Assembly: GCA_000004985.1 (NCBI GenBank)
Contig: GG738853.1
Strand: one strand, 5' to 3'
DNA length: 64,000 bases
Source of the DNA: Naegleria gruberi
Lineage: Eukaryota
Shown here: positions 15,465-41,816 of the stretch, piece by piece
Position numbering within the stretch: position 1 is the stretch's first letter
Layout: the number at the start of each line of letters is the position of its first letter
Notes under the pieces: model-generated
Databases searched by the model: none
The model's input: the letters and a program-made list of their open reading frames with translations, nothing else
What the model was told of the DNA's origin: nothing
Translations under genes and position numbers: made by a program

Positions 15465-16502
15465 TTAAATGAATAATGATTTCCAACTATCTGGTAATCG
15501 TTTAAAGAAGGGAATATTTTGGAATGTTTTAGGTTGATAGACAATTTCAATGGATGGTTTCGACTCTAAATCAAAGGCAAATGGCACATCACATTCAACA
15601 TCTAAATAATATTCAATCTTTAAAAAGGTTCCATTGGTGGAAGGTAAAGTTTTTCTAGGAATGAAAAAATTTAAAACTCTCTCAGTATGTGTTTTGGCAG
15701 AAACTCCTTCAAATTTCATTCTGTAAACTTCGACTGGACCTTGCTTAATTGTTCTACGACCTTCTTTATCATTGGTTTCTCCATAAGTGGTAAGTTTGAG
15801 AGCTGCTTCATCACAAGAAATTGTTGCAGTTCTAAATAATTTAACTTTCAATGATTGAACATCTTTCCTTGAATCATTTTGAATGCTCAATTTGATTGGA
15901 ATAACTTCACATGGTTGGAAAAAGTTCTTTTCCATTTCTAGTTTCATTTTCAATTTACCAATACCTCCAAAAAGGAATTTCTTCTCTTTGAAATCAGTCA
16001 CTTGTTCTCTGATAATGTTTGGAGTAATAGGAACAAGCATACTACAATATAAATCTCCAAGTCTTGCAGCTACCTTATAAATAACTGCTCCTTTGTAAAC
16101 ATCTTTACAATCTTTCATTGAAATAAAAGTGCTTGGAAGCAATCCATTGGTTGGTAATTGAATTTCGAATGGAAACGAATAATCACCTGCTTCTATTCCA
16201 CTAGGAAAGCTTTTAACAATCGGTCTCAGGTCAACCAATGCCTTTTTACCATTCAACGAATAAGAGCTAGTTCTAGTATCCAACTGTATATCAGTCACAA
16301 CTAAACCTTTAGGAGTTACACCAATCTCATCATCCAATATATGAAGTTTAGTTCTTTCCTTTCCTTTGAATATGACAATTAAATTATTAGCTGGAGAGAA
16401 TGAAGATGGCAAAAGTGGTTCAGTGAGAGAAAGATTAATTATTCCACTCACCACTTCACCAGGATGATAGAAAGGCTTGGAAAGAGTAATGAAGATTGTC
16501 AT
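15465..16502 (-). CDS. arrestin-domain protein (paralog of 4109-5131)
   Basis: 345-aa ORF. MTIFITLSKPFYHPGEV...FKGKERTKL aligns along its length with the ORF at 4109. Confidence 0.65.
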   Translation of the reverse strand: MTIFITLSKPFYHPGEVVSGIINLSLTEPLLPSSFSPANNLIVIFKGKERTKLHILDDEIGVTPKGLVVTDIQLDTRTSSYSLNGKKALVDLRPIVKSFPSGIEAGDYSFPFEIQLPTNGLLPSTFISMKDCKDVYKGAVIYKVAARLGDLYCSMLVPITPNIIREQVTDFKEKKFLFGGIGKLKMKLEMEKNFFQPCEVIPIKLSIQNDSRKDVQSLKVKLFRTATISCDEAALKLTTYGETNDKEGRRTIKQGPVEVYRMKFEGVSAKTHTERVLNFFIPRKTLPSTNGTFLKIEYYLDVECDVPFAFDLESKPSIEIVYQPKTFQNIPFFKRLPDSWKSLFI

Positions 16503-20043: not shown

Positions 20044-20154
20044 TAAACTTTGAGTTTTTCAAATTTCCTACACCCAAACCAACTTCCAAATAGAAACAAT
20101 TTATTTAAGGTTGTGATGGTGAGATGTTTTTTCAATGTTCAAATAAACTTAAAA

Positions 20155-21803
20155 ATGCAGCAAGAATCGAACAGCGCACAGTTTCAGAATATATCATCTT
20201 CGGAATTGGAGCAAACGAGCACAACGTATGAGAGAAAAGAAGTGAAAATAATCGAATGGAAAGAATGGAAAATTGTCAAGTTTTTTAGAAGAGACAATAA
20301 AGAGAATGGAAATGGACCAAAACTTTACAAGATGAGGTGGATAATATTGCTGATTTTCGCGTTGGCAATGTTAAGTTCGTTTTTGGCTCAGTTGACTTTC
20401 TCTTCTCTTGGGTGAGTATATCGAATATTTCGAATTAAAGCTCATTTTAAATGAAACCATGAATGAAATTGAATTCTACCATTACAATCAGGGTAATTAT
20501 CATGCAGTATTATAAAATTCCACACCAGAATTGGAAAGTCAACATGATGAGTTTGATATTTCTTATAGTTCATCTTCCCTCTTCATTGATAGTGAGTTTC
20601 GTAATGAAACGTTTTGGATTAAGATGTTGCATGATCATATTCGGTTCACTAACATTTATTGGAATGTGGATTCGTTGTTTTGGCTATAAGAAAGGAGACG
20701 AAACCTATTTATGGATTGCATTTTGTGGCCAAACTTTCATTGCTTTTGCCCAACCATTCCTTACGAGCATTTCGGGTCTTTTGGGAGTAAATTGGTTTGG
20801 AGATAAGGAAAGAACACTGGTCCAAGTTGCAGCTCTACTTACGGCAGCTCTCGGAGGCGGAGTCGCATTTGCTATCGGACCTAGTTTAATTACGATGGGC
20901 AAGAGAGAAATGCATGGATCAGAGATTGGAATGCTAGCTTATTTATCTTCCCAGGCCTTTATTTCAACTGCTTGTTTATTGTTGATTGTTATTTTCTTTA
21001 AGGATCGACCACCAACTCCACCAGTACTAATTAAGGAAATTCAAACAATGGAGAAATTGGACGAAAACGAACAAATGTTAACAGAGGAGAGCAGATTGAC
21101 AATTAATTTGACCACTGATGACATCAATATCGAAAAAGGCTTTGAATCTTTCAATTCGAAAGATATTTATCCAGAACAAACTTTTTGGATAGGTTTTAAA
21201 AAGTTAATGACCTCTCCTCATTTCATAATGTTAACAATTTCATCATCCTGTCTGATTTCTGTCTTTCAAACAATGTCCATTCTCGATCAGATCATTAACC
21301 CAAAAGGTTACACCACCTTTGACACTGCAAATCTTAACATTGTCAATTTGGTATTTGTGGTATTTGGATGTTTTGGATTGAGTATTGTATTTGACAAGAC
21401 TAAACGTTTCAAATTGATTTCTTGCATCAGTAGCTTTATGGCATGTTTAGGATTTGCTTGTTTTGCCATTATCTTGCAATGGAACAAGTCAGATTTCACA
21501 ATAATTTTGGTTTATCTGTCAATGGTCGTTATCGGTTGTTCAGCCATTCCCAGTTTACCTCTAATTTCTCAAATGATAGTCTATTCAACCTATCCAATCC
21601 ATCCAGCAACAAGTCTTGTGATATCAAGTGCCTTCAGTACAATTTGGAATGTAATAATGTGGGTCATTGTAAATGTGCTACTGAGCGAGATGAGTAATTC
21701 ATCCAGTGTCATATTGTGGTTGAGCTTTGCGCTATTGATTGTTTCCTTTATAATGACTGTATTATTTAGAGGTAAATTCGATAATATTCTGGTCAATAAA
21801 TAG
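20155..21803 (+). CDS. MFS (major facilitator superfamily) transporter, FLVCR/MFSD7-like, 2 exons (20155-20411, 20492-21803)
   Basis: GTGAGT...AG intron of 80 nt joins ...LAQLTFSSLG to VIIMQYYK.... About 12 predicted TM helices. MFS loop motif WFGDKERTLVQVAA between TM2 and TM3. The upstream ATG choice (20155) is uncertain. Confidence 0.6.
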
Positions 21804-21888
21804 AAACTGTTCAAAGTTTATTTAGCCAAAGTTATACTTTGTTCATTCAACGTTTTTCGAAAATTGTAAATATGATGAAAATGTGTAA

Positions 21889-21977
21889 GGCGGCTTAGCA
21901 CAGTGGCAGTGCATCAGTCTTGTAGGCAGCAATGCTTAGATAACTGAGGGTCGAGGGTTCAATTCCCTCAGTCGCCT
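21889..21977 (+). tRNA. tRNA-Thr(UGU) with a 17-nt intron (anticodon assignment tentative)
   Basis: Cloverleaf: acceptor GGCGGCT/AGTCGCC; D-arm GCAC-AGTGGCA-GTGC; anticodon stem TCAGT/ACTGA with loop CTTGTA|intron GGCAGCAATGCTTAGAT|A; T-arm GAGGG-TTCAATT-CCCTC. TTTT terminator immediately 3'. Confidence 0.7.
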
Positions 21978-22047
21978 TTTGTATTGGTGATTGCCAAGAA
22001 AAACAAGCCTTAATTGTGAATAAGGGATATTTTCTTTTATCAATGTA

Positions 22048-22120
22048 TCCCCCTTAGCTCAGTCGGTAGAGCGTCAGACTGTTAATCTGCAGGTCGGTGG
22101 TTCGAGCCCACCAGGGGGAG
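22048..22120 (+). tRNA. tRNA-Asn(GUU)
   Basis: Acceptor TCCCCCT/AGGGGGA; D-arm GCTC-AGTCGGTA-GAGC; anticodon loop CTGTTAA; T-arm GGTGG-TTCGAGC-CCACC. T-rich terminator 3'. Confidence 0.8.
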
Positions 22121-22590
22121 TTGTTTTGTTTTTGTTTACTCTAAACTTTGAACTATATTTGATATTACGAATAAGCAGAATATTTCTGAAGGCCAATTGT
22201 TATTTTCAAACGAGATATCCCGTCTAGTTGAGCTGGAAAGCTCAAAAGAAGGGAATGTTAAACTAATAAGGATTGGACGTGATATTCCCGTTCCATGATT
22301 TTTTGCGAGTTAAAACCAGTTCCAAAATCAAGCGGTTGTACAAATCAGACAAGCTAACTGGATTTAAGCATACGAACCAACCTGAAAGAAATGTTTTCTA
22401 ATAGAACCTTCCATTGTAAGCTTTCCAGTATACTGAACATTAAAGATCTCAAAGTCTACTAAGTTGAATTACTATTGCAAATCACCATAATGATTGCTGA
22501 TGACATTGCTGCTACTACCACTCATTAAGTGTGTGATTAATTGTTGTTGATTTGTTGGAGAATCAGATAACACAATCAAAAAAACACAAC

Positions 22591-25500
22591 ATGTCTGGTA
22601 AACCAAGATATTCCACACTTGTGGAAATGCTCGAGCATGCAACACAAGAAAGAACATCCTCTCTCATTTACAGACAATTAGATTACTCCAATGATGTGGT
22701 GGGGGAGGAGAAGAAACTTTTCTCTGACTTATTGAAACCTTCAAGTATCAAGGAGATTAGTTATTGTGATTTCTTAAAGAAAGTGAAATCTCTCTCCACT
22801 CTCATTCAAACTCAAGCCAAAAGTGGTGATAGAGCTTTGCTAATCTTTGAACCAGGTATTAACTTTATTGCTGCTTTCTTTGCTACCTTGTTTGCTGGTG
22901 TTATTGCTGTACCTGTCTATCCTCCAAAGAACAAGGAAGAATTCAACAAGTTGAGTAAGATTCTGGCCGATTCTAAACCAAGTTTATTTCTGTTATCCAA
23001 GCTCATTCATCAAAACTTTGAGCAACATGGCATTAACAAGTTTTTTACCAAGATTAATTCTCAACAACATGTCGAGAATCAGGTAATACAAGATGTACTC
23101 AGTGGTTGTCTGGAAACTTATGAAGGTTTTAGTCTTTTGATTTCAGACGCGGTTGACTACAGTGATAAACAATTGTATACATATTGGAAACACCCAAACA
23201 TCGACACAGATTCGGTTGCTTTCCTCCAATATACCTCTGGATCAACCAGTGATCCAAAAGGTGTCATTCTCACTCATAGAAACCTTCTCAACAATCTTCA
23301 TGTTATGAACTATGCCCTACGATACTCTAATCAGAAACATGTTGTGCTCTGGCTTCCTCCTTACCATGACATGGGTTTAATTGCTGGTTTACTTGAAATT
23401 GTCTATTCGAATTGTAGTGCTACTGTATTATCTCCAATCTCCTTCCTGGAAAATCCATTACGTTGGATGTGGGCAATCAATGAATATAGAGCCACATTGC
23501 TGGGTGCTCCTAATTTTGGTTATGATCTCTGTGTAAAGCACTTTCTAGCTCATGAGAAGGAATACAGAGAAAGTTTTAAATTATTCGATTTTAGCAGTTT
23601 GGAAATTGTGGCATGTGGTGCAGAACCTATCAGAGCAGAAACTATGGAAAGTTTCAGTACACTCTTCTCTGAATTTGGATTGAAAAAACAAGCCATGTAT
23701 CCATGTTATGGATTGGCTGAGAGTACTCTCTATGTCACTGGTGTAAACTATATGAAAGGTTTCGACTTTACCACAATTGACAACAAGAACCAATACATTA
23801 TCAAGAATGGAACAGTCGAACAAACACAAACTCATCAAAAATTCGTTAATTGTGGTGTCAACTATGATGAAAATCAATCCATTAAAATTGTCGATCCAGA
23901 ATCTTCTACAGAAATGGAGAATGGAAAGGTTGGTGAAGTTTGGTTGTCAAGTCCAAGTGTCGCTCAAGGTTATTGGGAGAAACCAGAACTTTCTCAAGAG
24001 GTTTTCCATGCACGAGTGGTTGGAGATGATAGGGAGTATCTCAGAAGTGGAGATTTGGGTTTCATGTTGAATGGAAACTTGTACATTACTGGTCGTCGTA
24101 AGGATGTCATTATTTTGAATGGTGTGAATTATTATCCTCAAGATGTAGAATTGGCATGTTCTAAATGTCATGCACAGATTAGAACTGGGTGTGTGGTGGC
24201 TGTTAATATTGCTGATCGTGATGGACAGGATCGATTGGTGATAATTGCTGAAACTAAAGTTGTTTCGAATAGTGAGACACAAGTATTGGAGAGTATTGTA
24301 CAATCCATACGATCTGCAATTGCCGAATCGATGGGAATTCCAATGTATAATGCCCTATCGACCATCCTTCTCATGACTAAAGGAGGCATTCTCAAGACCA
24401 CAAGTGGTAAACTGAGACGTCAACCAACTAAACAAGCATTTCTCAATAACAAACTTCCTCCAAAACTAATCGTTCACAGATGGGATCAGGAGAAACTCTC
24501 AGATAGCGCTTCTCAACCAAGTACTCCAACAGAGATTGGATTGGCTAAAATTTGGAAAGAATTAACAGGAATTGATCCATCACTTTCGAATAACTTTTTC
24601 CTTTTGGGAGGAAGCTCTATGAGTTTGATTCAGCTAAAATCTAGAATCCAACATGTTTTCAATGTAATTATAAGTTTGACTGATTTGGTAATGTCGCCAA
24701 CATTGCAATTGATGGCTAAATTGGTCGATCAACACAGCAATCAATGTAATACTAGCTCTGTACAAATTTCAAAGAGAGAAAGGACAAGTGACACTTTAGA
24801 ATTATCAAACTCACAAACGAGATTCTGGTTCTTACATCACTTGATCGATAATCCTGCCATTCACAATGTTTTTGCAGGTGTTCGTTTGAAAGGTGACTTG
24901 GATAAACAAGCTTTAGAAAATTCCATTACCAAACTTGTAGAACGTCATGAAAGTTTACGTACAAGCTTTCAAGAAACAGAGATGTCACCAATGCAACACA
25001 TTCATTCTGAAATTTCTCTCAAATTAAATTCAATTAGTTTGAAACATCTCACTAGTGAAGAAGAAAAGAATTTGGAATTGAACAAGTTTCTCTTTGATGA
25101 GGTGAACGCACCATTCAACTTGAATGAAGCTCCTCTTCTCAGAGCTAACTTGATCGAAATGTCAGAGTGTGATCATGTTTTGGCCATGACTTTCCATCAT
25201 ATCATAATCGATGGATGGTCCATGAATTTACTTGTTGAAGAGCTAGTTCAATACTATCTGGCTTTTAAGAATCATCAATCGCCAATTCTTCCACAAGTTC
25301 TTCAATATGGTGATTACACACTGTGGAGCAATCAACAACAATCAATGAATGAAACTCAATTAAAATATTGGGAAGAAAAACTCTCCAATTTACCAGAATC
25401 TATCAAATTGCCAACAGAAGGCGAAAACTTATCCAAATCATTTGATGGATCTCATTTCTGGTTTGCAATCCCAGAAACTCTCGTTAACTCCTTAAGAAAG

Positions 25501-28020
25501 ATCGTTCAATCAAGAGGAGCCACACTCTACATGGGCATGTTAACTCTATTCAATATTTTACTGTACAGATATTCTGAACAGAATGATATTGCAATTGGAA
25601 CACCTGTTGTGAATAGACAGCAACATGTTGAGTTGGAAGCACTGATTGGACTCTTGGTAAATACTCTGGTGATTAGAAATAATGTGAATCCAGAGCATAA
25701 TTTCATTGAAACTTTGATGGAAATCAAGTCAACTGTAATTGAAGCTTTTGAAAATCAAGATGTTCCTTTCCAGAAAGTTGTAGAAAGATTGAAAGATTCA
25801 CGTAATTCAATGGAGAATCCACTTTTTCAAGTCATGATGGCCATGCACAACCCACAACGGAAAATTGTCATGGATAATCTTGAAACTGAGCTAGTTAGAG
25901 TTGACAATGGATCATCCATGTTTAATTTAACACTTGAATTACAAGAAATAGAGGATGGAAGTTTACAATGTTGTTTCGAATATAGAACTGATCTTTTCAA
26001 GAAGGAAACTATTGAAAGAATGGCTGGAAATCTTATTGAACTATTGAAATCAGCCACAACTGAATCGGATAACAAATCAATAAGCAAGTTGTCTTTCCTA
26101 TCGAATTCTGAAGTTGAAACTTTGAATAATTTTGGAAATATCACCAATAATGATCTCAGTTCTTCAGTTTCGAATAGATTATTACACGAACTCATTGAAG
26201 AGCAAGCTATCAAAACACCAGACAATACCGCCGTCTACTTCCAAGGTAAATCCTTCTCCTACCAACTTCTCGATCAAAAATCAGACCAATTAGCAAGGAG
26301 ATTACGAGATATGAATCACTCCAAAAATCCCTTCATTGCCATTAGCATTGACAGAAGCTTTGAATTGATTGTGAGTTTAGTTGCCATTCTCAAAGCTGGA
26401 TTTGCCTATCTCCCTCTCGATCCAAGCTATCCACAAGAACGATTACTCTACGTGCTTGATGATTCACAAGCAGGTCTGTTAATAACTCAATCTAATTATT
26501 CTGAAAAATTCAAAGACTATCAAGGGAAAGTGTTGTCTATTGATAGATTCGTTTGGTCAGCAAGTAGCACTTCCACATCCTCCATTAGTATTGAGAAACC
26601 ATTGACATCACCAAATGATTTGGCCTATCTCATTTACACTTCTGGCAGCACTGGAAATCCAAAAGGTGTCATGCTTTCTCACAGAAATGTAAACAATACT
26701 CTCAATGGTCTAATTAAATTGTACGAAATGAAGCAAGATGACAAGTTTATTCATTACAGCTCCTATAGCTTTGATGTTTCATTGGAAGAGATTTTCCTTC
26801 CACTAATTACAGGTGCTTCGATTATTGTGGCCAATCCAAATATTCAATATCAGTTGGAGGAGCTTGTTGACTTGGTTGAGCAAACGAAGGCAACAATCAT
26901 TGGTGTCACTCCAAGTTTGTGGCATGGTATAAGGTACCATGTTTTGAGGAATCCAAAATCAACTGAATCTTTAAGAATTGTCACTATTGGAAATGAACCT
27001 GTTGATTCGAATGCAGTCAAAGAAATCCAACAAATGTGTCCCAATGCAACAGTATTCAATGTATGTGGAGGAACAGAGACTTGCATTGATTGGTCTCTCT
27101 TCAAGGTTCCAAAAGATTATGCACCTTTACAACAAGTAGTTCCTATTGGAAAACCAATTCCTGGTGTCAAATTGTATGTTTTGGATTCGAATAGAGAGTT
27201 AGTTCCAATTGGAGTACCTGGAGAACTCTACGTTGGAGGAAATGGTGTTGGAAATGGATATTGGAAAAATAGTGAGCTAACCTCCAAGAGCTTTATTGAA
27301 AATCCATTCCAAACTAAAGACGAAAAACAGAACAATGTTAATGGAAAACTATTCAAAACAGGAGATTTGGTTAAATGGTTACCTGATGGAAATATGGTAT
27401 TCATCTCCAGATTGGATCATCAAGTGAAATTAAGAGGATTCAGAGTTGAATTGGGTGAAATTCAAAATGTCATGAGGAAGAGTGGTCTCGTCAGGGAGGC
27501 AATTGTGATTCTCCAAGATGATGAGAATGTCAGTAACAAACAACTTGTTGGATACATTGTGTGTAATGAGGGAGAAACTAGACCGCACTCAATCATCATA
27601 CAGCTAGTCAATTCCTACTTGGAGAAACATCTGCCATACTATATGATTCCATCTCATATCATTTGCATTGAAAAAGTTCCAACAACCAATAATGGAAAAT
27701 TGGATCGTAGAGCTTTACCAAGAGCAGTTGACCACCAGCAAACTAAAAGACTAGAAGAAAATATGGGAGAGGTCGATCCAGCTGATATTCCAGAGAGTCA
27801 TTGCAAGCTAAGACAAATTTGGTCCAAAGTACTCAAGATGAAGGAGGATTGCATTGGGTTGAGTGATAACTTTTTTGCAATTGGTGGAAATTCCATTCTC
27901 ATTGCCCAATTGAGAAGCATGGTTCGTACAGAGTTGGGTATTCAGTTAGAGTTGAAGACTTTCTTTGAAAAATTAACAATCCAATCTATGGCTACCCACA
28001 TTGAAACTGTTAGCCAATAA
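22591..28020 (+). CDS. non-ribosomal peptide synthetase, single module with lipo-initiation: FAAL - ACP - C - A - PCP, no terminal TE/R domain
   Basis: One uninterrupted ORF (the tool ORF begins at a TTG at 22552; the first ATG is 22591). FAAL-type N-terminus (RALLIFEPGINFIAAFFATLFAGVIAVPVYPP, YTSGSTSDPKGVILTHRNL). Carrier domain 1 with FFLLGGSSMSLIQL. Condensation domain with HHIIIDGWS. Adenylation core motifs LIYTSGSTGNPKGVMLSHRN, FDVS, NVCGGTETC, GELYVGGNGVGNGY, YKTGDLVKW, GRLDHQVKLRGFRVELGEIQ, LPYYMIPSHIICIEKVPTTNNGKLDRRAL. Carrier domain 2 with FFAIGGNSILIAQL. Stop follows directly. Confidence 0.9.
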   Translation: MSGKPRYSTLVEMLEHATQERTSSLIYRQLDYSNDVVGEEKKLFSDLLKPSSIKEISYCDFLKKVKSLSTLIQTQAKSGDRALLIFEPGINFIAAFFATLFAGVIAVPVYPPKNKEEFNKLSKILADSKPSLFLLSKLIHQNFEQHGINKFFTKINSQQHVENQVIQDVLSGCLETYEGFSLLISDAVDYSDKQLYTYWKHPNIDTDSVAFLQYTSGSTSDPKGVILTHRNLLNNLHVMNYALRYSNQKHVVLWLPPYHDMGLIAGLLEIVYSNCSATVLSPISFLENPLRWMWAINEYRATLLGAPNFGYDLCVKHFLAHEKEYRESFKLFDFSSLEIVACGAEPIRAETMESFSTLFSEFGLKKQAMYPCYGLAESTLYVTGVNYMKGFDFTTIDNKNQYIIKNGTVEQTQTHQKFVNCGVNYDENQSIKIVDPESSTEMENGKVGEVWLSSPSVAQGYWEKPELSQEVFHARVVGDDREYLRSGDLGFMLNGNLYITGRRKDVIILNGVNYYPQDVELACSKCHAQIRTGCVVAVNIADRDGQDRLVIIAETKVVSNSETQVLESIVQSIRSAIAESMGIPMYNALSTILLMTKGGILKTTSGKLRRQPTKQAFLNNKLPPKLIVHRWDQEKLSDSASQPSTPTEIGLAKIWKELTGIDPSLSNNFFLLGGSSMSLIQLKSRIQHVFNVIISLTDLVMSPTLQLMAKLVDQHSNQCNTSSVQISKRERTSDTLELSNSQTRFWFLHHLIDNPAIHNVFAGVRLKGDLDKQALENSITKLVERHESLRTSFQETEMSPMQHIHSEISLKLNSISLKHLTSEEEKNLELNKFLFDEVNAPFNLNEAPLLRANLIEMSECDHVLAMTFHHIIIDGWSMNLLVEELVQYYLAFKNHQSPILPQVLQYGDYTLWSNQQQSMNETQLKYWEEKLSNLPESIKLPTEGENLSKSFDGSHFWFAIPETLVNSLRKIVQSRGATLYMGMLTLFNILLYRYSEQNDIAIGTPVVNRQQHVELEALIGLLVNTLVIRNNVNPEHNFIETLMEIKSTVIEAFENQDVPFQKVVERLKDSRNSMENPLFQVMMAMHNPQRKIVMDNLETELVRVDNGSSMFNLTLELQEIEDGSLQCCFEYRTDLFKKETIERMAGNLIELLKSATTESDNKSISKLSFLSNSEVETLNNFGNITNNDLSSSVSNRLLHELIEEQAIKTPDNTAVYFQGKSFSYQLLDQKSDQLARRLRDMNHSKNPFIAISIDRSFELIVSLVAILKAGFAYLPLDPSYPQERLLYVLDDSQAGLLITQSNYSEKFKDYQGKVLSIDRFVWSASSTSTSSISIEKPLTSPNDLAYLIYTSGSTGNPKGVMLSHRNVNNTLNGLIKLYEMKQDDKFIHYSSYSFDVSLEEIFLPLITGASIIVANPNIQYQLEELVDLVEQTKATIIGVTPSLWHGIRYHVLRNPKSTESLRIVTIGNEPVDSNAVKEIQQMCPNATVFNVCGGTETCIDWSLFKVPKDYAPLQQVVPIGKPIPGVKLYVLDSNRELVPIGVPGELYVGGNGVGNGYWKNSELTSKSFIENPFQTKDEKQNNVNGKLFKTGDLVKWLPDGNMVFISRLDHQVKLRGFRVELGEIQNVMRKSGLVREAIVILQDDENVSNKQLVGYIVCNEGETRPHSIIIQLVNSYLEKHLPYYMIPSHIICIEKVPTTNNGKLDRRALPRAVDHQQTKRLEENMGEVDPADIPESHCKLRQIWSKVLKMKEDCIGLSDNFFAIGGNSILIAQLRSMVRTELGIQLELKTFFEKLTIQSMATHIETVSQ

Positions 28021-28145
28021 ATCCTAAAAATGTAAAATATAAGTTGTAATATCTTAAAATATTTATTATAACGTCTCGTGTATCGTAAAGGTAATGTAAA
28101 ATAGATATTTCATATTGGCCGTGAAAAGTTTAAAAAGGAAAACAA

Positions 28146-28218
28146 CTCCCCCTGGTGGGCTCGAACCACCGACCTGCAGATTAACAGTCTGACGCTCTAC
28201 CGACTGAGCTAAGGGGGA
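28146..28218 (-). tRNA. tRNA-Asn(GUU), inverted duplicate
   Basis: Exact reverse complement of the tRNA at 22048-22120. Confidence 0.8.
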
Positions 28219-28299
28219 TACATTAATAAAAGAAAATATTCCTTATTCACAATTAAGGCTTGTTTTTCTTGTTAAGATTTTGGCAATCACCAGTACAAA

Positions 28300-28388
28300 A
28301 GGCGACTGAGGGAATTGAACCCTCGACCCTCAGTTATCTCAGCATTTCTGCCTACAAGACTGATGCACTGCCACTGTGCTAAGCCGCC
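28300..28388 (-). tRNA. tRNA-Thr(UGU) with 17-nt intron, inverted duplicate
   Basis: Exons identical to 21889-21977. Intron GGCAGAAATGCTGAGAT versus GGCAGCAATGCTTAGAT in the left copy. Confidence 0.7.
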
Positions 28389-28460
28389 TTACACTTTATC
28401 ATCAAATTTAAAATTTTCGAAAAACATGTGCAAGGACAAAGAATAATTCATTTGCAGAGT

Positions 28461-30824
28461 TTATTCAGAAATTGAAATGGTTTGTGAGGTGTGACTTCTT
28501 GTAGACTGTGTGTCATTAGCAATATAAGCTTCTAATGGAATGGTTCTGTGATGTGAAACACCATTTTGTTGGCTCTTATCTACACTCGAAATGTTCGAAT
28601 TATTGTTATTCGAATTATGATTAAACTTTTCAAAAAGACCTTGGAAGCTTTCATTTACCTTTCTTCCAATAATGGATAATCTACCACTTGCTCTCGATCT
28701 AAATGATGAAGGAGCTGTCTGTGAAATTTTTCCACCATGAACTGTTCCCCGTCTTGTTGAAGCTGAAGAAGCATTTCCCACGTACGAAACCATCGAAGCT
28801 GACGAAACAATTTCCTCCTCATTCGTAATATTTCCCAAATTGACAGATTTTCTATTACTATTTGCATGATCAAATTCTGAAAATCTCTTCTTCATAATAT
28901 GACTATACATTAGTGAGATTCCCATATCGAAAATGTGTAACGTATTGAACATGTTCTTCCTATCACAACATCCGAGGAATGCCTTGAAAACATTCAATTC
29001 TTGAGCTCGTTCAGTTGCCTGAATATATGAAACAAAATTCATATCAGCAACAGTGATCGTTCTCCTTCGTCCAATCTTGAATTTGTACTTTTCCCTCAGA
29101 TAGTGATCGACCTCATCTCGCTTCAATCCAATCATGGCAACAATGGATTGAGGAAAGTGTGTATTTCTCGTCTCGATAAACTTTTTAAAATAGGAATTCT
29201 CTTTGGAAGGTAATGAATCCTGATTGGTCATATCAAAACAGTACAGGAATAGATCAACCTTCTTTTTAGCATTCTTGAGAATTTTGGAATTTTCAGATAG
29301 TTTTTCATTCATTGTCTTTTCACTTTTGGATGATTTGAAATGATCCGGAATATTGTGTGGAATATCATGAACAACCAGATCGATCCTTTCACCATTCAAC
29401 AAGTAATATGGATGACAGTAGGTTTGCATTTGTTCGGTTGGAATGTATCCATGTTCCTTTCCAACTGGCATGGCATTTCCAAAGATGGATTCTATAAAGG
29501 TTGTCTTGCCAACATTCTCTTCACCTACAATGACAATTCTAAATATTTTCCTTCTGGTCTTTCTCTTCACATTGGTCATTAATTTGGTAAATTGACTAAC
29601 GTTATTATCAACTTGAACTTGCAGAGGTTCAATACCACAAGCATGTTGACCATCCGATAATCCAACATTAATTGGTGGAGAAACCAGAGAATGTTCAGAA
29701 TTTACCGATTGTGCACTCAAAACTGAACTTGTTGATGAATTATGTATTGTATGAGCATTTTGAGAAAGGATTGAATTATCCAAACTCGACGATTTCACAT
29801 GGTGATTTCTTTTTTGAGGTGAAGCATTCAAAATATTATCATAACTTGCACTATTAATAATGATACTTCTTCTGGCTAGTGTAGCTGAAGTGAGTGGTGC
29901 ATTATCAGTCAATCGCCAACTATTTCTACAACTCCTTAAATCAAAACTTCCAGTTGACCTTGTTGAAGCAAACGAATCATTCAATGAATTTCTACTATTC
30001 ATTGAACCAGTTGTCTGTATTGAGCCACTACTAGTATTATTTGCACTATTGGTATTACTACTCGAAAATTTCATCATTAAAATAGCCATAACATGATCCA
30101 TTTGATCTTCAATCATGGCATTTGACAGTAAATTTGGAAATCTCTTCAAGTGAATTTCATTAATAATCCTCAAACACGTCCAAGATATCGAAAGTTGATT
30201 CTTTGAAGTCAATCCCAATGATAACAAATCACTAACATTAAGAAATGGAAGAATTCCCTTCTCCACAATTTCACTTTCCATATTTTTCAATAATTCCACA
30301 GCTTGTTTATCCATGAAACAATAATCAGAGTCGGAGAAACTGGCTCTCGAATCGAATGATGGTTTATCTGTTGCTGGACTTGAATGGCTGGTCCTTCCTG
30401 TTGAAGTTGATGGAGAAGAAAGCAAATGATTTTCATACGAAAGTTGACTAATTTCCACAGAAGGACTAGACAAGGAATTTGTCGAATATCTTCCACTATT
30501 ACTTCCTGTAGGACTTGTTTTCTTATTACTTGTTGATGATGGAATGATGAGTCTGTCTTCTCTTCGTTTACGAAGAATTGCTAATTGACGTTGTTGAGAA
30601 ATTGTCAATTCGTCCTCGTCGAGAGATTCATTGATGGAATTAAAGATTGGCATGATTATAAAAAGAGGGTTATGTTGTGATGATGATGAATTATCATGTG
30701 TGTCTGTTGAGTGAGTATCTAACGGTTTGATTTTTTTAATTTGTTGATTCGAATAAAATGTGAGAGGGACTACGAAAGGAAAGAATGAGTTGCTAATTGA
30801 GATAAAATCAATTAAATATGACAA
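28461..30824 (-). CDS. Ser-rich protein with a divergent Ras-like small-GTPase (P-loop) domain
   Basis: 787-aa single-exon ORF. P-loop GEENVGKTTF. G3-like DLVVHDIPH lacks the DxxGQ glutamine. A C-terminal GTPase-like fold follows. Long S/N/T-rich low-complexity N-terminal half. Confidence 0.45.
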   Translation of the reverse strand: MSYLIDFISISNSFFPFVVPLTFYSNQQIKKIKPLDTHSTDTHDNSSSSQHNPLFIIMPIFNSINESLDEDELTISQQRQLAILRKRREDRLIIPSSTSNKKTSPTGSNSGRYSTNSLSSPSVEISQLSYENHLLSSPSTSTGRTSHSSPATDKPSFDSRASFSDSDYCFMDKQAVELLKNMESEIVEKGILPFLNVSDLLSLGLTSKNQLSISWTCLRIINEIHLKRFPNLLSNAMIEDQMDHVMAILMMKFSSSNTNSANNTSSGSIQTTGSMNSRNSLNDSFASTRSTGSFDLRSCRNSWRLTDNAPLTSATLARRSIIINSASYDNILNASPQKRNHHVKSSSLDNSILSQNAHTIHNSSTSSVLSAQSVNSEHSLVSPPINVGLSDGQHACGIEPLQVQVDNNVSQFTKLMTNVKRKTRRKIFRIVIVGEENVGKTTFIESIFGNAMPVGKEHGYIPTEQMQTYCHPYYLLNGERIDLVVHDIPHNIPDHFKSSKSEKTMNEKLSENSKILKNAKKKVDLFLYCFDMTNQDSLPSKENSYFKKFIETRNTHFPQSIVAMIGLKRDEVDHYLREKYKFKIGRRRTITVADMNFVSYIQATERAQELNVFKAFLGCCDRKNMFNTLHIFDMGISLMYSHIMKKRFSEFDHANSNRKSVNLGNITNEEEIVSSASMVSYVGNASSASTRRGTVHGGKISQTAPSSFRSRASGRLSIIGRKVNESFQGLFEKFNHNSNNNNSNISSVDKSQQNGVSHHRTIPLEAYIANDTQSTRSHTSQTISISE

Positions 30825-38471: not shown

Positions 38472-39455
38472 ATGGTCCTTCTCAAATCAGACAAAATCAA
38501 ACTCACCATTCTCTCAGCCAATAACCTTCGTTCCATGGATCGAAATGGATTCTCAGATCCATACACAAAGATTTTCATCATTCCTGAACAAAATGTTGAA
38601 TTTAAAACAAGGAAAATTAAGAAAACTTTAAATCCAGTTTGGAATGAACAATTTACATTTTCACCAACTGCTCATTATTGTCAGGTTTCTTGTTATTTAT
38701 ACGATTGGGATATGATTGGAAAGGATGATGTGTTGGGGATGGTCAATTTTGAAATTTCAGAAGAAAGGTTTCGGATAAATCAAGAACATACAATTACAAA
38801 GAATGTGGATGATCAGGAGGATGGAAAATATGGAACTGTCACTTTTAAATTTACCATTGAAAGATCCCAACAAGAAATTGACAAGTGGCACGATTTGAAA
38901 CTTCCAGCCAATTACAAATTTGTAATGGATTCAGATCCAACTTTTAAAGCAGCAATTCCATACTATTTCGAATACATTCCAGACCAGCTCACAAGTGAGA
39001 AACTCAAAAATCTAGTTGGCTGCACCAAAATGGAGTTTAAATACATGGAAAATGTCTTTACAATTATGAGATCGCAACACAACAAGTCAATTGAGGAAAT
39101 TCTACTCATGCACACAAGACCTTTCGAAAATTCGACCAAGTCAGACGAAATTATTTGTAGAAAGTGTGATCACTTTACCAAAGGTGATATTTTGATGGGA
39201 AAATTCAAACAAGTTGTCATTGCTGATTATTATGTTGGATATGGAAAGGACACGAATGGACACGACGTGTTTTCATTGAGTTTCTTTATGGTTGGAATGT
39301 TGGAAGAGGGTCTCTATGAAATTTATCATTATTGCAGGGAGGAGGGAAGTCATGAGAGTGAGGAGTTGAATATTGAGGAAGATGTCCTGATTAATAATGT
39401 GATACAATATACACAGATGAGGAAATTCATTTCCAAAAAGTCGTGTTTGCCTTAA
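38472..39455 (+). CDS. C2-domain protein (single exon)
   Basis: N-terminal C2 motifs: RNGFSDPYTKIFI...KKTLNPVWNEQFTF...YDWDMIGKDDVLG. It is a paralog of 13064 and 40186 but lacks their intron. Confidence 0.6.
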   Translation: MVLLKSDKIKLTILSANNLRSMDRNGFSDPYTKIFIIPEQNVEFKTRKIKKTLNPVWNEQFTFSPTAHYCQVSCYLYDWDMIGKDDVLGMVNFEISEERFRINQEHTITKNVDDQEDGKYGTVTFKFTIERSQQEIDKWHDLKLPANYKFVMDSDPTFKAAIPYYFEYIPDQLTSEKLKNLVGCTKMEFKYMENVFTIMRSQHNKSIEEILLMHTRPFENSTKSDEIICRKCDHFTKGDILMGKFKQVVIADYYVGYGKDTNGHDVFSLSFFMVGMLEEGLYEIYHYCREEGSHESEELNIEEDVLINNVIQYTQMRKFISKKSCLP

Positions 39456-39530
39456 ATAAATATGAAATTGCATGAATTAATTAGTACATCAACAATCCGG
39501 CTAATAACTCTTTTCAACAAATATACGTAA

Positions 39531-39603
39531 GCGGCAGTAGATCAGTGGTTAGATCGTCCGCCTCACACGCGGAAGGTCGCGGGTTCGAACCCCGTTTGCC
39601 GTA
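39531..39603 (+). tRNA. tRNA-Val(CAC)
   Basis: Acceptor GCGGCAG/TTGCCGT; D-arm GATC-AGTGGTTA-GATC; anticodon loop CTCACAC; T-arm GCGGG-TTCGAAC-CCCGT. T-run downstream. Confidence 0.8.
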
Positions 39604-39992
39604 AACAAATTTTAATCTTTTAGTGCTTCTACGGTTCTTTTTCATACCATATGTTTATCTACGTTGTTTCCCAATCTTTATTCAAGAAACGATTGAGACG
39701 AGCTGTTCCTTAATATTATTTGCCAAAACTGAAATTTTTCAAATGCCTCACCATAATTAAATATTGGTTGGATAAAGTGTGTTAAGCATGTTTTCCAGAA
39801 ATTATGAAATATCTCATCAAGGTAAATATAGTTCAATGTTTGTTGGAATTGAATGGTTTCCTGAATAGGTGTTTTTGCTTTTGAAAATGCAAAAAGTACC
39901 CAACACAAATAATGTTTGAAACAAAATATCATCTTTACTAAATATCAATAATTGTATTATTGAAAATCATTAATTCATGCCCTATAAAATTT

Positions 39993-40065
39993 TACGCAAG
40001 GCGGGGTTTGAACCCGCGACCTTCCGCGTGTGAGGCGGACGATCTAACCACTGATCTACTTGCGC
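39993..40065 (-). tRNA. tRNA-Val(CAC), convergent copy
   Basis: Same body as 39531-39603. The acceptor stem is changed to GCGCAAG/CTTGCGT with compensatory changes. T-stem 3' CCCGC and T-loop TTCAAAC. TTTT follows. Confidence 0.8.
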
Positions 40066-40185
40066 TTACATTCAATATCTAAAAAGTTCTGTTGTGCGCT
40101 TAACAACCTTCTCATTAAGGGAGATAAAGGCATAGGGTTCTTTACAGAATATTACAACCCAAAAAAATTGATACAAAAGCTCATC

Positions 40186-40842
40186 ATGGGATTTGGATAT
40201 CAACACAGATTGCACGTAACCATTGAGGCAGGTGTTGATCTTGTTGGCGCTGATAGAAATGGTCTCTCCGATCCAGTAAGTTTCATGATATTCAATTATT
40301 AATTAAATGTTCCTAGTATTGTAAAATAATCGTTAATGGAGCTCTTCCTAGAAAAACAAAAACCATTAAAAAGACTTTGAATCCTGTATGGAATGAAACT
40401 TTTAAATTCTATGCAATTTATACAACCGTAAAGTTGAAATTAAAATTTGAGGGTGAGTTTTAAATCATTACTACGAGTTATTGAATAATATTATTATTAA
40501 TATCAAATGATCTTAAAGTATTTGATTGGGATTTTATTCTTAAAGATGTAAGTAAACTTGTATATTTAATATTTATATTATTTAAATATATTGATCATCA
40601 TTATATATTAGGATTTTATCGGAAGAGCTTCCCTTGATATTGATTCCAACGATATTCAACTCGATAAGGAATACACCCAAATATTAAAACTTCAAGATAC
40701 AAACAGTGGAAGTATCAAAATTAAATATGTCATCATGGAAGGCTTGGATCCATCTGTAAAACATACCATTACTCGTTCTGTAACACCATCTCCAAGACAA
40801 CAAGTAAAACCAACCATGTTTGAACCAACGAACCAACTGTAA
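40186..40842 (+). CDS. C2-domain protein, 4 exons (40186-40275, 40317-40452, 40519-40547, 40612-40842)
   Basis: Exon 1 reads MGFGYQHRLHVTIEAGVDLVGADRNGLSDP. A 41-nt GTAAGT...AG intron follows. Exon 2 reads YCKIIVNGALPRKTKTIKKTLNPVWNETFKF.... A GTGAGT intron precedes the 29-nt micro-exon VFDWDFILKD, at the same position and phase as in the gene at 13064. Exon 4 reads DFIGRASLDIDS.... Confidence 0.55.
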
Positions 40843-41727: not shown

Positions 41728-41816
41728 GGGTGGTTAGCTCAGCGGTAGAGCACCGGATTGCAAAGATATTTGCAGCAGACATCCGATGGTCACGTGTTCG
41801 ATCCACGTACCACCCT
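41728..41816 (+). tRNA. tRNA-Cys(GCA) with 17-nt intron
   Basis: Acceptor GGGTGGT/ACCACCC; D-arm GCTC-AGCGGTA-GAGC; anticodon stem CCGGA with loop TTGCAA|intron AGATATTTGCAGCAGAC|A; T-arm ACGTG-TTCGATC-CACGT. T-run 3'. Confidence 0.75.

What the first reader, a model, noticed from the sequence alone, without database searches (positions are those of the whole stretch)
21851..28425. Intronless NRPS gene enclosed by inverted repeats that each carry a tRNA-Thr(intron)/tRNA-Asn pair
A 5.4-kb NRPS ORF with no introns sits in a genome whose other genes carry GTAAGT introns. It is bracketed by two ~285-bp inverted repeats: 21851-22135 and its reverse complement at 28135-28425. Each repeat contains the same two tRNA genes. 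The repeats still share tRNA-exon identity and about 90 percent spacer identity. Possible explanations: an inverted segmental duplication of a tRNA pair captured the NRPS; the NRPS inserted into a tRNA locus; or the element is a composite-transposon-like or foldback unit. The inverted-repeat geometry would also allow recombinational inversion of the NRPS segment. NRPSs are rare outside fungi and bacteria, so a horizontal origin is plausible. The A+T-rich codon usage matches the host, so any transfer is probably old.
Basis: partly seen in the sequence, partly recalled or inferred. Interest (0 to 1): 0.85.

Follow-up and report, generated by a model that had tools for sequence, protein, structure and literature searches.

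The report
Bacterial-type NRPS between inverted tRNA pairs
In the amoeba Naegleria gruberi, an anciently acquired bacterial-type peptide-synthetase gene sits between two mirror-image copies of a tRNA-Thr/tRNA-Asn gene pair; the mirror repeat is real, but it is much younger than the gene's arrival and is probably a by-product of tRNA-gene duplication, not the vehicle of the transfer.

Summary
Arms 21852-22133 and 28133-28425 are 93% identical inverted repeats. Each carries tRNA-Thr(UGU, 17-nt intron) and tRNA-Asn(GUU), and all four genes point inward. They enclose one intact 1809-aa ORF (22591-28020) with the domain order FAAL-T-C-A-T. The window is Naegleria gruberi, and the ORF is its annotated 'non-ribosomal peptide synthetase'.

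An old bacterial origin is supported. An ortholog in N. lovaniensis (54-56% identity) has the same architecture and the same A-domain code. All other close relatives are bacterial or metagenomic bimodular FAAL-NRPSs at 30-35% identity. Codon composition matches the host.

The link between the repeat and the transfer is not supported. The N. lovaniensis locus has no tRNA and no inverted repeat within 10 kb. Neutral sites are saturated between the two species, yet they are 92% identical between the arms. There is no transposase, integrase or target-site duplication. Homology stops at the edges of the tRNA dimer. Being intronless is ordinary in this genus.

The most likely reading is a local inverted duplication, or a gene-conversion-homogenised pair, of a tRNA dimer that happens to flank a resident gene of bacterial origin. 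Interest is modest.

The parts
21852..22133 (+). Left arm of the inverted repeat. It is one tRNA dimer unit: 37-nt leader, tRNA-Thr, 70-nt spacer, tRNA-Asn, 13-nt trailer with T-runs.
   Evidence: the repeat finder; alignment A1; blastn 93% over 287 columns, E 1e-120; per-segment counts.
21889..21977 (+). tRNA-Thr(UGU) gene with a 17-nt intron (21926-21942) at position 37/38.
   Evidence: ARAGORN; Rfam RF00005, 58.5 bits; sequence read.
22048..22120 (+). tRNA-Asn(GUU) gene.
   Evidence: ARAGORN; Rfam 67.9 bits.
22134..22590 (+). Unique 457-bp upstream region of the NRPS (presumed promoter and 5' UTR). It has no repeat, no RNA family hit and no similarity elsewhere in the window.
22591..28020 (+). 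Intronless NRPS coding sequence, 1809 aa, identical to the annotated N. gruberi 'non-ribosomal peptide synthetase' (P0001). AATAAA overlaps the stop codon.
   Evidence: Translation; Pfam; 100% match to P0001.
22591..24465 (+). FAAL-type adenylation domain (about aa 1-625, with a DIP2-like C-terminal subdomain at aa 505-623).
   Evidence: Pfam PF00501 and PF23024. Best bacterial matches 38% identity. The FAALPred paper lists FAALs in two Naegleria species (PMC12820801).
24511..24765 (+). Carrier domain T1 (about aa 641-725; GGSSM phosphopantetheine site). It is PCP-like rather than like the FAAL-associated ACP of the bacterial relatives.
   Evidence: Pfam PF00550. It matches the second or third T of bacterial homologs best in 113 of 118.
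24790..26124 (+). Condensation domain (aa 734-1178) with an intact HHIIIDG motif, of elongation (second-C) type.
   Evidence: Pfam PF00668, E 3.9e-99. The second C of bacterial homologs scores best in 102 of 118.
26197..27699 (+). Amino-acid adenylation domain (aa 1203-1703) with specificity code DVEGTGVID(K).
   Evidence: Pfam; PDB sequence search; PheA numbering verified against 1amu_A; code extraction.
27805..28002 (+). Carrier domain T2 (aa 1739-1804; GGNSI site). It is the last domain; no TE, R or terminal C domain follows.
   Evidence: Pfam.
28133..28425 (-). Right arm of the inverted repeat, the reverse complement of the left arm with an 11-nt insertion in the Thr-Asn spacer.
28146..28218 (-). 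tRNA-Asn(GUU) gene, identical to the left copy.
28300..28388 (-). tRNA-Thr(UGU) gene. Its exons are identical to the left copy and its intron has 2 substitutions.
20463..21803 (+). Context: the left neighbour is an MFS transporter (NAEGRDRAFT_64336). It is native to Heterolobosea, has a probable upstream exon and GTGAGT intron, and its stop codon lies 48 nt before the left arm.
   Evidence: Pfam; exhaustive search with names (N. gruberi paralogs at 47-63%, Willaertia magna at 37%); sequence.
28461..30653 (-). Context: the right neighbour is a GTPase-like 'predicted protein' (P0121, 730 aa). Its stop codon lies 35 nt beyond the right arm.
   Evidence: Pfam; 100% match.

Best explanation
Two independent things lie side by side.

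(1) The ORF is a single-module FAAL-T-C-A-T non-ribosomal peptide synthetase of bacterial ancestry. It entered the Naegleria lineage before N. gruberi and N. lovaniensis diverged, and it has since been inherited vertically and fully adapted to host composition. By inference from domain order and intact catalytic motifs, it adenylates a fatty acid, loads it on T1, and condenses it with an amino acid loaded on T2. The code DVEGTGVIDK is tentatively of basic, Orn/Lys-like type. The product would be an N-acyl amino acid that must be released by hydrolysis or by a trans-acting enzyme, because no release domain is present.

(2) The 282-293-bp arms are two copies of one Pol III unit, a tRNA-Thr(UGU)/tRNA-Asn(GUU) dimer. 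They arose by a local inverted duplication in the N. gruberi lineage, or they are an older pair kept alike by intrachromosomal gene conversion. This is part of the tRNA-gene amplification of this genome (924 tDNAs). The two copies occupy the short intergenic spaces on either side of the NRPS. The repeat is not the transfer vehicle.

The shown steps are the anatomy, the homology, the relative ages and the absence of mobile-element hallmarks. The inferred steps are the chemistry, the duplication mechanism and the incidental nature of the juxtaposition.
For: Organism and gene identity: 100% match to N. gruberi P0001 on a 695,587-bp scaffold.

Bacterial ancestry:
- Apart from the two Naegleria proteins, the best 120 hits are all bacterial or metagenomic, at 30-35% identity and 2580-3155 aa.
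- The two checked (P0003, P0004) are bimodular FAAL-T-C-A-T-C-A-T.
- The viral scan was empty.

Age of the transfer:
- N. lovaniensis P0002 is 54-56% identical, intronless, has the same five domains and an identical specificity code.
- GC3 is 0.324 against 0.294 +/- 0.044 for other window ORFs.

Functional integrity: there is no stop codon, and the motifs HHIIIDG, GGSSM, GGNSI, SGSTGNPKG and NGKLDR are intact.

Repeat younger than the gene:
- The arms' unconstrained sites are 92% identical.
- Four-fold sites between the two species are 37.6% identical against 30.4% expected at random.

Repeat not tied to the NRPS: there is no tRNA and no inverted repeat within 10 kb of the N. lovaniensis gene.

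The repeat is just the tRNA dimer: flank homology beyond the arms is not above shuffles.

No mobile-element signs: no target-site duplication, and no ORF other than the NRPS inside the repeat.

tRNA-gene dynamics:
- N. gruberi has 924 tDNAs.
- Within 1 kb it has 77 adjacent pairs against 39 expected.
- Same-anticodon inverted '+-' pairs number 4 against 0.5 expected, and '-+' pairs number 0 (PMC2888827 supplement 2).
- The window holds a second convergent same-anticodon pair, tRNA-Val(CAC).
- It also holds inverted arrestin-like paralogs.

Native neighbours: the MFS family is heterolobosean.
Against: - Only one outgroup locus was available. N. gruberi is distant from the other Naegleria species and was left out of the published synteny analysis (PMC9928731), so the different neighbourhood in N. 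lovaniensis does not show which state is ancestral.
- The rest of the N. gruberi genome could not be searched. I therefore cannot say how many Thr-Asn dimers exist or how often tDNA inverted repeats span a gene.
- The tight fit, with exactly one gene enclosed and the arms filling both intergenic spaces, could reflect function or insertion into a palindrome centre rather than coincidence.
- Divergence looks lower in the central spacer (3/70) than at the edges (8/67), which hints at gene conversion. In that case the pair could be older than its identity suggests.
- No formal phylogeny with eukaryotic NRPS outgroups was made.
- The substrate prediction rests on a 10-residue code with no close characterised match.
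Confidence: 0.62

Rival explanations
1. Insertion into a palindrome centre. N. gruberi first had a tight convergent palindrome (Thr>Asn> <Asn<Thr), like the tRNA-Val pair 12 kb away. The NRPS gene, already resident in Naegleria, was later relocated into its break-prone centre.
For: - The arms enclose exactly one gene plus only 457 bp and 112 bp of unique DNA.
- A compact convergent same-anticodon pair with a 385-bp centre exists at 39531-40065.
- Same-anticodon '+-' pairs are enriched in this genome, 4 against 0.5 expected.
- The NRPS has different neighbours in N. lovaniensis.
Against: - No relic of a split centre or of insertion junctions was found. The inner flanks show no homology above shuffles.
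- The Val pair turns out to be two different gene variants without flank homology, so it is a weak precedent.
- The different neighbourhood is expected anyway, given the distance between the two species.
Confidence: 0.15
2. A maintained functional frame. The two convergent tDNA dimers are an old pair kept alike by gene conversion because they do something for the enclosed gene. Candidates are TFIIIC/Pol III-based chromatin boundaries insulating a foreign Pol II gene, or substrates for a recombinational inversion switch.
For: - The geometry is symmetric and the tDNAs lie immediately outside the neighbouring genes' poly(A) signals.
- Divergence is lowest in the middle of the arms (3/70 against 8/67), as conversion tracts would give.
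- tDNAs are established barrier elements in yeast (HMR tRNA-Thr; from general knowledge, not tested here).
Against: - N. lovaniensis keeps the NRPS intact with no tDNA within 10 kb, so the gene does not need such a frame.
- The divergence gradient is not statistically significant.
- There are no data on chromatin, transcription or inversion isomers.
Confidence: 0.1
3. Mobile island. The 6.6-kb unit is a composite-transposon-like or foldback element, or a tRNA-targeted genomic island, that brought the NRPS in.
For: The inverted terminal repeat geometry and the foreign ancestry of the cargo.
Against: - There is no transposase, integrase or reverse transcriptase; the only long ORF is the NRPS.
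- There is no target-site duplication.
- The arms are complete functional tRNA genes, not att-like partial direct repeats.
- Composition is host-like.
- The arms are far younger than the acquisition.
- The ortholog in N. lovaniensis lacks the arms.
- Scans of the viral and metagenome collections for the Thr-Asn dimer pattern, and of the viral collection for NRPS relatives, were empty.
Confidence: 0.03
4. Assembly artefact. One arm is a mis-joined copy of the other.
For: None beyond the general caution that short repeats can confuse assemblers.
Against: - The arms differ by 11 substitutions, an 11-nt indel and an 8-nt indel.
- Each arm is joined to different unique genes on its outer side and to the two ends of one continuous ORF on its inner side.
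- The ORF equals the deposited protein.
Confidence: 0.02

Closest known systems
Bacterial FAAL-initiated lipopeptide NRPSs (bimodular FAAL-T-C-A-T-C-A-T proteins of Acidobacteriota, Tumebacillus, Myxococcota and Cyanobacteria)
   Same: - The domain families and their order at the N-terminus are the same, with 30-39% identity per domain and intact core motifs.
- By inference the chemistry is the same: fatty-acyl loading followed by condensation with an amino acid.
   Different: - The Naegleria protein has only one module and no release domain.
- Its T1 and C resemble the elongation-type T and C of the bacterial proteins rather than their first ACP and C. This suggests an internal deletion or fusion rather than a simple truncation.
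- It is encoded in a eukaryotic chromosome with host codon usage.
Horizontally acquired bacterial genes in free-living amoebae, including the FAALs already noted in 'two Naegleria species'
   Same: - The nearest homologs are bacterial.
- The gene is integrated among native genes.
- It is shared by two species.
   Different: Nothing essential. This gene is already annotated as an NRPS in N. gruberi, and the FAALPred survey (PMC12820801) mentions Naegleria FAALs. Its product and role are unstudied.
Local tDNA duplications and clusters in eukaryotic genomes (Bermudez-Santana et al. 2010 survey)
   Same: - A tRNA gene unit is duplicated nearby.
- N. gruberi has an inflated tDNA count and more adjacent pairs than expected, with same-anticodon inverted pairs all in the '+-' configuration seen here.
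   Different: - The unit here is a two-gene dimer.
- The copies are 6.3 kb apart, outside that survey's 1-kb cluster definition.
- The copies bracket a protein-coding gene.
Bacterial tRNA-linked genomic islands
   Same: Foreign DNA lies next to tRNA genes.
   Different: - Islands are bounded by short direct repeats of a tRNA 3' end, carry an integrase and show anomalous composition.
- Here the repeats are inverted full genes, there is no integrase, and composition is host-like.
Composite transposons and foldback elements
   Same: Inverted terminal repeats enclose a cargo gene.
   Different: - The arms encode tRNAs, not a transposase.
- There is no target-site duplication.
- There is no evidence of other copies.
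tDNA chromatin barriers (for example yeast HMR tRNA-Thr)
   Same: Pol III genes flank a Pol II gene.
   Different: This is purely an analogy recalled from the literature. No functional or comparative support was found here, and the N. lovaniensis ortholog lacks flanking tDNAs.

Membership tests
Non-ribosomal peptide synthetase (modular) | Adenylation, carrier (phosphopantetheine) and condensation domains in module order, with intact core motifs | tested here: met
   Pfam finds PF00501 x2, PF00550 x2, PF00668 and PF13193. The motifs HHIIIDG, GGSSM, GGNSI, SGSTGNPKG and NGKLDR were read. PDB sequence matches to NRPS A domains reach E 1e-92 to 1e-182.
Non-ribosomal peptide synthetase (modular) | A chain-release domain (TE, R or terminal C) at the end of the assembly line | tested here: not met
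   The protein ends 5 residues after T2, and no PF00975 or reductase hit was found. The same holds in N. lovaniensis. Release must be in trans or spontaneous.
FAAL-initiated lipopeptide synthetase | An N-terminal fatty-acyl-AMP ligase domain followed by a carrier domain and a C domain | tested here: met
   AMP-binding plus DIP2-like C subdomain at aa 505-623, followed by PP-binding and Condensation. The FAAL is 38% identical to bacterial FAAL-NRPSs. The fatty-acid substrate was not tested.
Horizontally transferred gene of bacterial origin in a eukaryote | Closest homologs outside the genus are bacterial, with no closer eukaryotic homolog | tested here: met
   The best 120 of 5558 hits are the 2 Naegleria proteins, and the remainder are bacterial or metagenomic.
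Horizontally transferred gene of bacterial origin in a eukaryote | Physically integrated among native eukaryotic genes (not contamination) | tested here: met
   The gene is flanked by intron-containing eukaryotic tRNAs, a heterolobosean MFS gene and a GTPase-like gene on a 695-kb scaffold. The N. lovaniensis copy lies among Ras, RRM, DnaJ, kinase and Kelch genes.
Horizontally transferred gene of bacterial origin in a eukaryote | Phylogeny nests the eukaryotic sequence within bacterial clades | not tested
Only similarity ranking is available.
tRNA-linked genomic island (bacterial type) | An integrase gene and direct att repeats derived from a tRNA 3' end | tested here: not met
   The only long ORF inside is the NRPS. 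The repeats are inverted and contain whole tRNA genes.
tRNA-linked genomic island (bacterial type) | Composition deviating from the host | tested here: not met
   GC is 0.37 against 0.31-0.40 for the window, and GC3 is within 1 SD of neighbouring ORFs.
Composite transposon / foldback element | Transposase encoded in or between the arms | tested here: not met
   The arms contain only tRNA genes, and the interior holds only the NRPS.
Composite transposon / foldback element | Target-site duplication at the outer ends | tested here: not met
   No direct repeat of 4 nt or more abuts the ends, allowing +/-3 nt of slop.
Composite transposon / foldback element | Multiple copies or polymorphic insertion sites in the genome | not testable with these tools
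   The N. gruberi genome is not in the searchable collections. The Thr-Asn dimer pattern found nothing in the metagenome or viral collections, and the viral scan for NRPS relatives was also empty.
Local inverted duplication of a tDNA unit | Two copies sharing homology in non-coding parts (leader, intron, spacer), in opposite orientation, on one chromosome segment | tested here: met
   Non-exon sites are 126/137 identical and the order is collinear. Orientation is + and -. Spacing is 5999-6282 nt.
Local inverted duplication of a tDNA unit | Lineage-specific (absent from the orthologous region of relatives) | tested here: inconclusive
   It is absent around the N. lovaniensis NRPS. However, the loci share no other gene, so orthology of the intervals is not established.

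The most novel reading that the evidence does not exclude
The convergent tRNA-Thr/tRNA-Asn dimers could be a maintained frame for a gene of bacterial origin, kept alike by gene conversion. They could act either as paired Pol III/TFIIIC chromatin boundaries that isolate the NRPS from its very close neighbours, or as recombination substrates that flip the 6-kb segment. A variant is that such tDNA palindromes are preferred landing sites for relocated or foreign genes in Naegleria.
Probability: 0.08. Interest if true: 0.7.

Novelty: new member of a known kind. Interest (0 to 1): 0.3.

Why it matters
The gene shows that a free-living heterolobosean amoeba has kept, for a long time, an intact bacterial-type lipo-amino-acid/NRPS enzyme. 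No N. fowleri or Willaertia protein appears among its close relatives. It is therefore a candidate for an unstudied amoebal natural product.

The inverted tRNA frame is a clean, datable example of tRNA-gene duplication in a genome with an unusually large tDNA complement. For the original claim, the main value of this work is negative: the eye-catching 'island' geometry is not evidence of how the gene arrived.

Tried and rejected
1. Empty-site test. I tried to find N. lovaniensis or N. fowleri orthologs of the flanking genes with two concatenated-protein queries. The first was swamped by low-complexity words and returned only the N. gruberi GTPase-like protein itself. The second returned nothing. 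All three homolog searches were thereby spent, and the test could not be done.
2. Exact-protein contig look-ups for N. gruberi proteins. The N. gruberi genome is not indexed, so no genome-wide count of Thr-Asn dimers or tDNA inverted repeats was possible.
3. Scans of the metagenome and viral collections for the dimer pattern, and of the viral collection for NRPS relatives. All were empty.
4. Co-transfer of the neighbouring MFS transporter. Rejected: its family is native to Heterolobosea and it probably has an intron.
5. Extension of the repeat into the flanks, to test for a larger segmental duplication. The result was not above shuffles.
6. The tRNA-Val pair as a second example of the same process. 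This is only partly apt: the two genes are different variants with no flank homology.
7. The very high PDB score to LgrA looked like a special relationship. It is only the sum of two A-domain matches.
8. The sigma-70 promoter and terminator scan is irrelevant for a eukaryote, and its counts were at or below those of the shuffles.
9. Literature searches for a described Naegleria NRPS or tRNA palindromes found only the FAALPred remark and the 2010 tDNA survey.

Full report
OBSERVATION. The described structure is present.
- The repeat finder reports two adjoining inverted-repeat blocks, 21852-21997/28280-28425 (146 nt, 95%) and 21995-22133/28133-28271 (139 nt, 97%), offset by an indel.
- As one alignment the arms are 93.0% identical over 287 columns, blastn E 1e-120.
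- This is the only long high-identity repeat in the 64-kb window. The only other one of at least 60 nt is the 96-nt, 84% tRNA-Val pair.
- ARAGORN and Rfam agree on the tRNA genes. tRNA-Thr(UGU) lies at 21889-21977(+) and 28300-28388(-). tRNA-Asn(GUU) lies at 22048-22120(+) and 28146-28218(-).
- All four genes point inward, towards the enclosed gene.
- The Thr genes carry a 17-nt intron at position 37/38.
- Exons are 145/145 identical. Leader, intron, spacer and trailer are 126/137 = 92% identical, with an 11-nt indel in the spacer.
- Between the arms lies a single ORF, from the ATG at 22591 to the stop at 28020. It is 1809 aa and has no GTAAGT.

WHAT THE GENE IS.
- Pfam gives an N-terminal AMP-binding domain with a DIP2-like C subdomain (a fatty-acyl-AMP-ligase type), PP-binding, Condensation, a second AMP-binding domain with AMP-binding_C, and PP-binding. 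The domain order is FAAL-T-C-A-T, with no release domain.
- The catalytic motifs are intact.
- The protein is 100% identical to the N. gruberi entry 'non-ribosomal peptide synthetase' on a 695,587-bp scaffold. This identifies the organism.
- The next hit is N. lovaniensis at 54% identity and 1837 aa. Every other one of the best 120 hits is bacterial or metagenomic, at 30-35% identity and 2580-3155 aa.
- The two checked (P0003, P0004) are bimodular FAAL-T-C-A-T-C-A-T.
- No virus-derived relative was found.
- Using PheA numbering verified against 1amu_A, the A-domain code is DVEGTGVID(K) in both Naegleria species. The bacterial relatives carry many different codes. The acidic residues at positions 239 and 331, and the resemblance to Orn-type codes, suggest a basic amino acid. 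This is tentative.
- The Naegleria T1 and C resemble the elongation-type T and C of the bacterial proteins. The second C scores best in 102 of 118, and the first ACP is rarely even detected. The single-module enzyme is therefore more likely an internal-deletion or fusion derivative than a simple N-terminal truncation.
- Inferred function: acylation of one amino acid to give a lipo-amino acid, released in trans or by hydrolysis.

HOW OLD THE TRANSFER IS.
- The N. lovaniensis gene is intronless, has the same five domains and sits among ordinary eukaryotic genes.
- GC3 of the N. gruberi gene is 0.324, against 0.294 +/- 0.044 for 29 other window ORFs.
- The acquisition therefore predates the split of the two species, and the gene is fully ameliorated.
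- The FAALPred survey has already remarked on FAALs in 'two Naegleria species' and proposed horizontal transfer (PMC12820801).
- No paper describing the Naegleria NRPS itself was found.

IS THE REPEAT CONNECTED WITH THE TRANSFER? The evidence says no.
- The 25.5-kb N. lovaniensis locus has no tRNA by ARAGORN or Rfam and no inverted repeat. It shares no gene with the window other than the NRPS.
- N. gruberi is distant from the other Naegleria species and was left out of the published synteny analysis (PMC9928731). The different neighbourhood is therefore uninformative by itself. It does show that the gene does not need a tRNA frame.
- Four-fold degenerate sites at conserved residues are 37.6% identical between the species, against 30.4% expected from composition. 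They are essentially saturated. The arms' unconstrained sites are 92% identical. The arms therefore last shared a sequence, by duplication or by gene conversion, long after the gene arrived.
- Mobile-element hallmarks are absent. There is no other ORF inside, no target-site duplication and no compositional anomaly.
- Homology ends at the edges of the tRNA dimer. Neither the outer nor the inner flanks score above shuffles.
- The left neighbour, an MFS transporter, belongs to a heterolobosean family with N. gruberi and Willaertia paralogs, and it probably has a GTGAGT intron. It was therefore not co-transferred.

WHAT THE REPEAT MOST LIKELY IS.
- N. gruberi has 924 tDNAs.
- It has about twice the expected number of adjacent tDNA pairs within 1 kb (77 against 39).
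- Its same-anticodon inverted pairs are enriched, and all are in the '+-' configuration (4 against 0.5 expected; 0 of '-+') (PMC2888827).
- The window itself has a second convergent same-anticodon pair, tRNA-Val(CAC) at 39531-39603(+) and 39993-40065(-). Those two genes are distinct variants without flank homology.
- The window also has inverted arrestin-like paralogs 10 kb apart.
- The simplest account is a local inverted duplication of one roughly 285-bp Pol III dimer unit, or gene-conversion homogenisation of an older pair. The copies happen to occupy the two short intergenic spaces around the NRPS.
- On both sides the neighbouring genes end with AATAAA at their stop codons, 35-48 nt outside the arms.

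RIVALS.
- Insertion of a relocated NRPS into the centre of a pre-existing tDNA palindrome is not excluded (0.15).
- A maintained frame, as an insulator or an inversion switch, kept alike by conversion is also not excluded (0.10). It draws weak support from lower divergence in the central spacer (3/70 against 8/67, not significant).
- A mobile island (0.03) and an assembly artefact (0.02) are unlikely, for the reasons above.

'Intronless among intron-bearing genes' is a weak signal. Most window ORFs are long and uninterrupted, and six of the ten complete neighbouring genes in N. lovaniensis have lengths that imply no intron.

LIMITS.
- The empty-site comparison could not be run.
- The N. gruberi genome is not in the contig index.
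- The environmental and viral scans were empty.
- No rooted phylogeny was made.

VERDICT. Old horizontal transfer of the NRPS is supported, and it is already annotated and hinted at in the literature. The inverted tRNA repeat is real, but it is young and probably incidental. It is a new member of known kinds, and interest is about 0.3.

Noticed in passing
window 39531-39603(+) and 39993-40065(-): This is a convergent pair of tRNA-Val(CAC) genes 390 bp apart. The two copies differ by compensatory changes in the acceptor stem and by one further substitution in the T arm. They share no flank homology beyond a few bases, so they are distinct gene variants and not a recent inverted duplication.
   Followed up: yes
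window 41728-41816(+): An intron-containing tRNA-Cys(GCA) was found by Rfam (54.7 bits) but missed by ARAGORN. The window therefore has 7 tRNA genes, and this one is unpaired.
   Followed up: partly
window 4109-5131(+) and 15465-16502(-): Two arrestin-domain paralogs, 51% identical in protein, lie in inverted orientation about 10 kb apart. This is an older inverted gene duplication in the same region.
   Followed up: partly
window 38472-39455(+) and 40207-40547(+): C2-domain paralogs (37-40% aa identity over short stretches; 77% DNA identity over 56 nt) lie in direct orientation on either side of the inverted tRNA-Val pair. A simple tandem or inverted duplication does not explain this arrangement.
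   Followed up: no
window 41922-43679(-) and 45766-48681(+): Two large ORFs in opposite orientation share repeated segments at 27-49% aa identity. They are probably paralogous repeat-domain proteins.
   Followed up: no
window 21795-21803, 28016-28021, 28455-28468(-): In the MFS, NRPS and GTPase-like genes an AATAAA hexamer abuts or overlaps the stop codon. This suggests extremely short 3' UTRs in this compact genome.
   Followed up: partly
window 21883-21888, 39526-39530, 40066-40070(-), 22044-22047: A TGTAA or GTAA motif sits immediately upstream of the first base of the tRNA-Thr and both tRNA-Val genes (TGTA for tRNA-Asn) but not of tRNA-Cys. It may be a conserved 5' leader or Pol III start element.
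   Followed up: no
window 24511-26124 (NRPS T1 and C domains): The Naegleria T1 and C domains are closer to the second (elongation) T and C of the bacterial bimodular homologs than to their first ACP and C. The second C scores best in 102 of 118. This hints that the single-module enzyme arose by internal deletion of ACP-C1-A1.
   Followed up: partly
window 20050-20415 and about 20411-20462: A 121-aa ORF directly upstream of the MFS ORF ends at a GTGAGT. It is probably an unannotated first exon plus a short intron of NAEGRDRAFT_64336, whose deposited model (399 aa) starts further downstream.
   Followed up: no
L001 (N. lovaniensis PYSW02000020.1:147244-172757): The N. lovaniensis NRPS has a higher GC3 (0.378 against 0.324), in line with its locus GC of 0.381. 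Each ortholog therefore tracks its own host's composition.
   Followed up: partly
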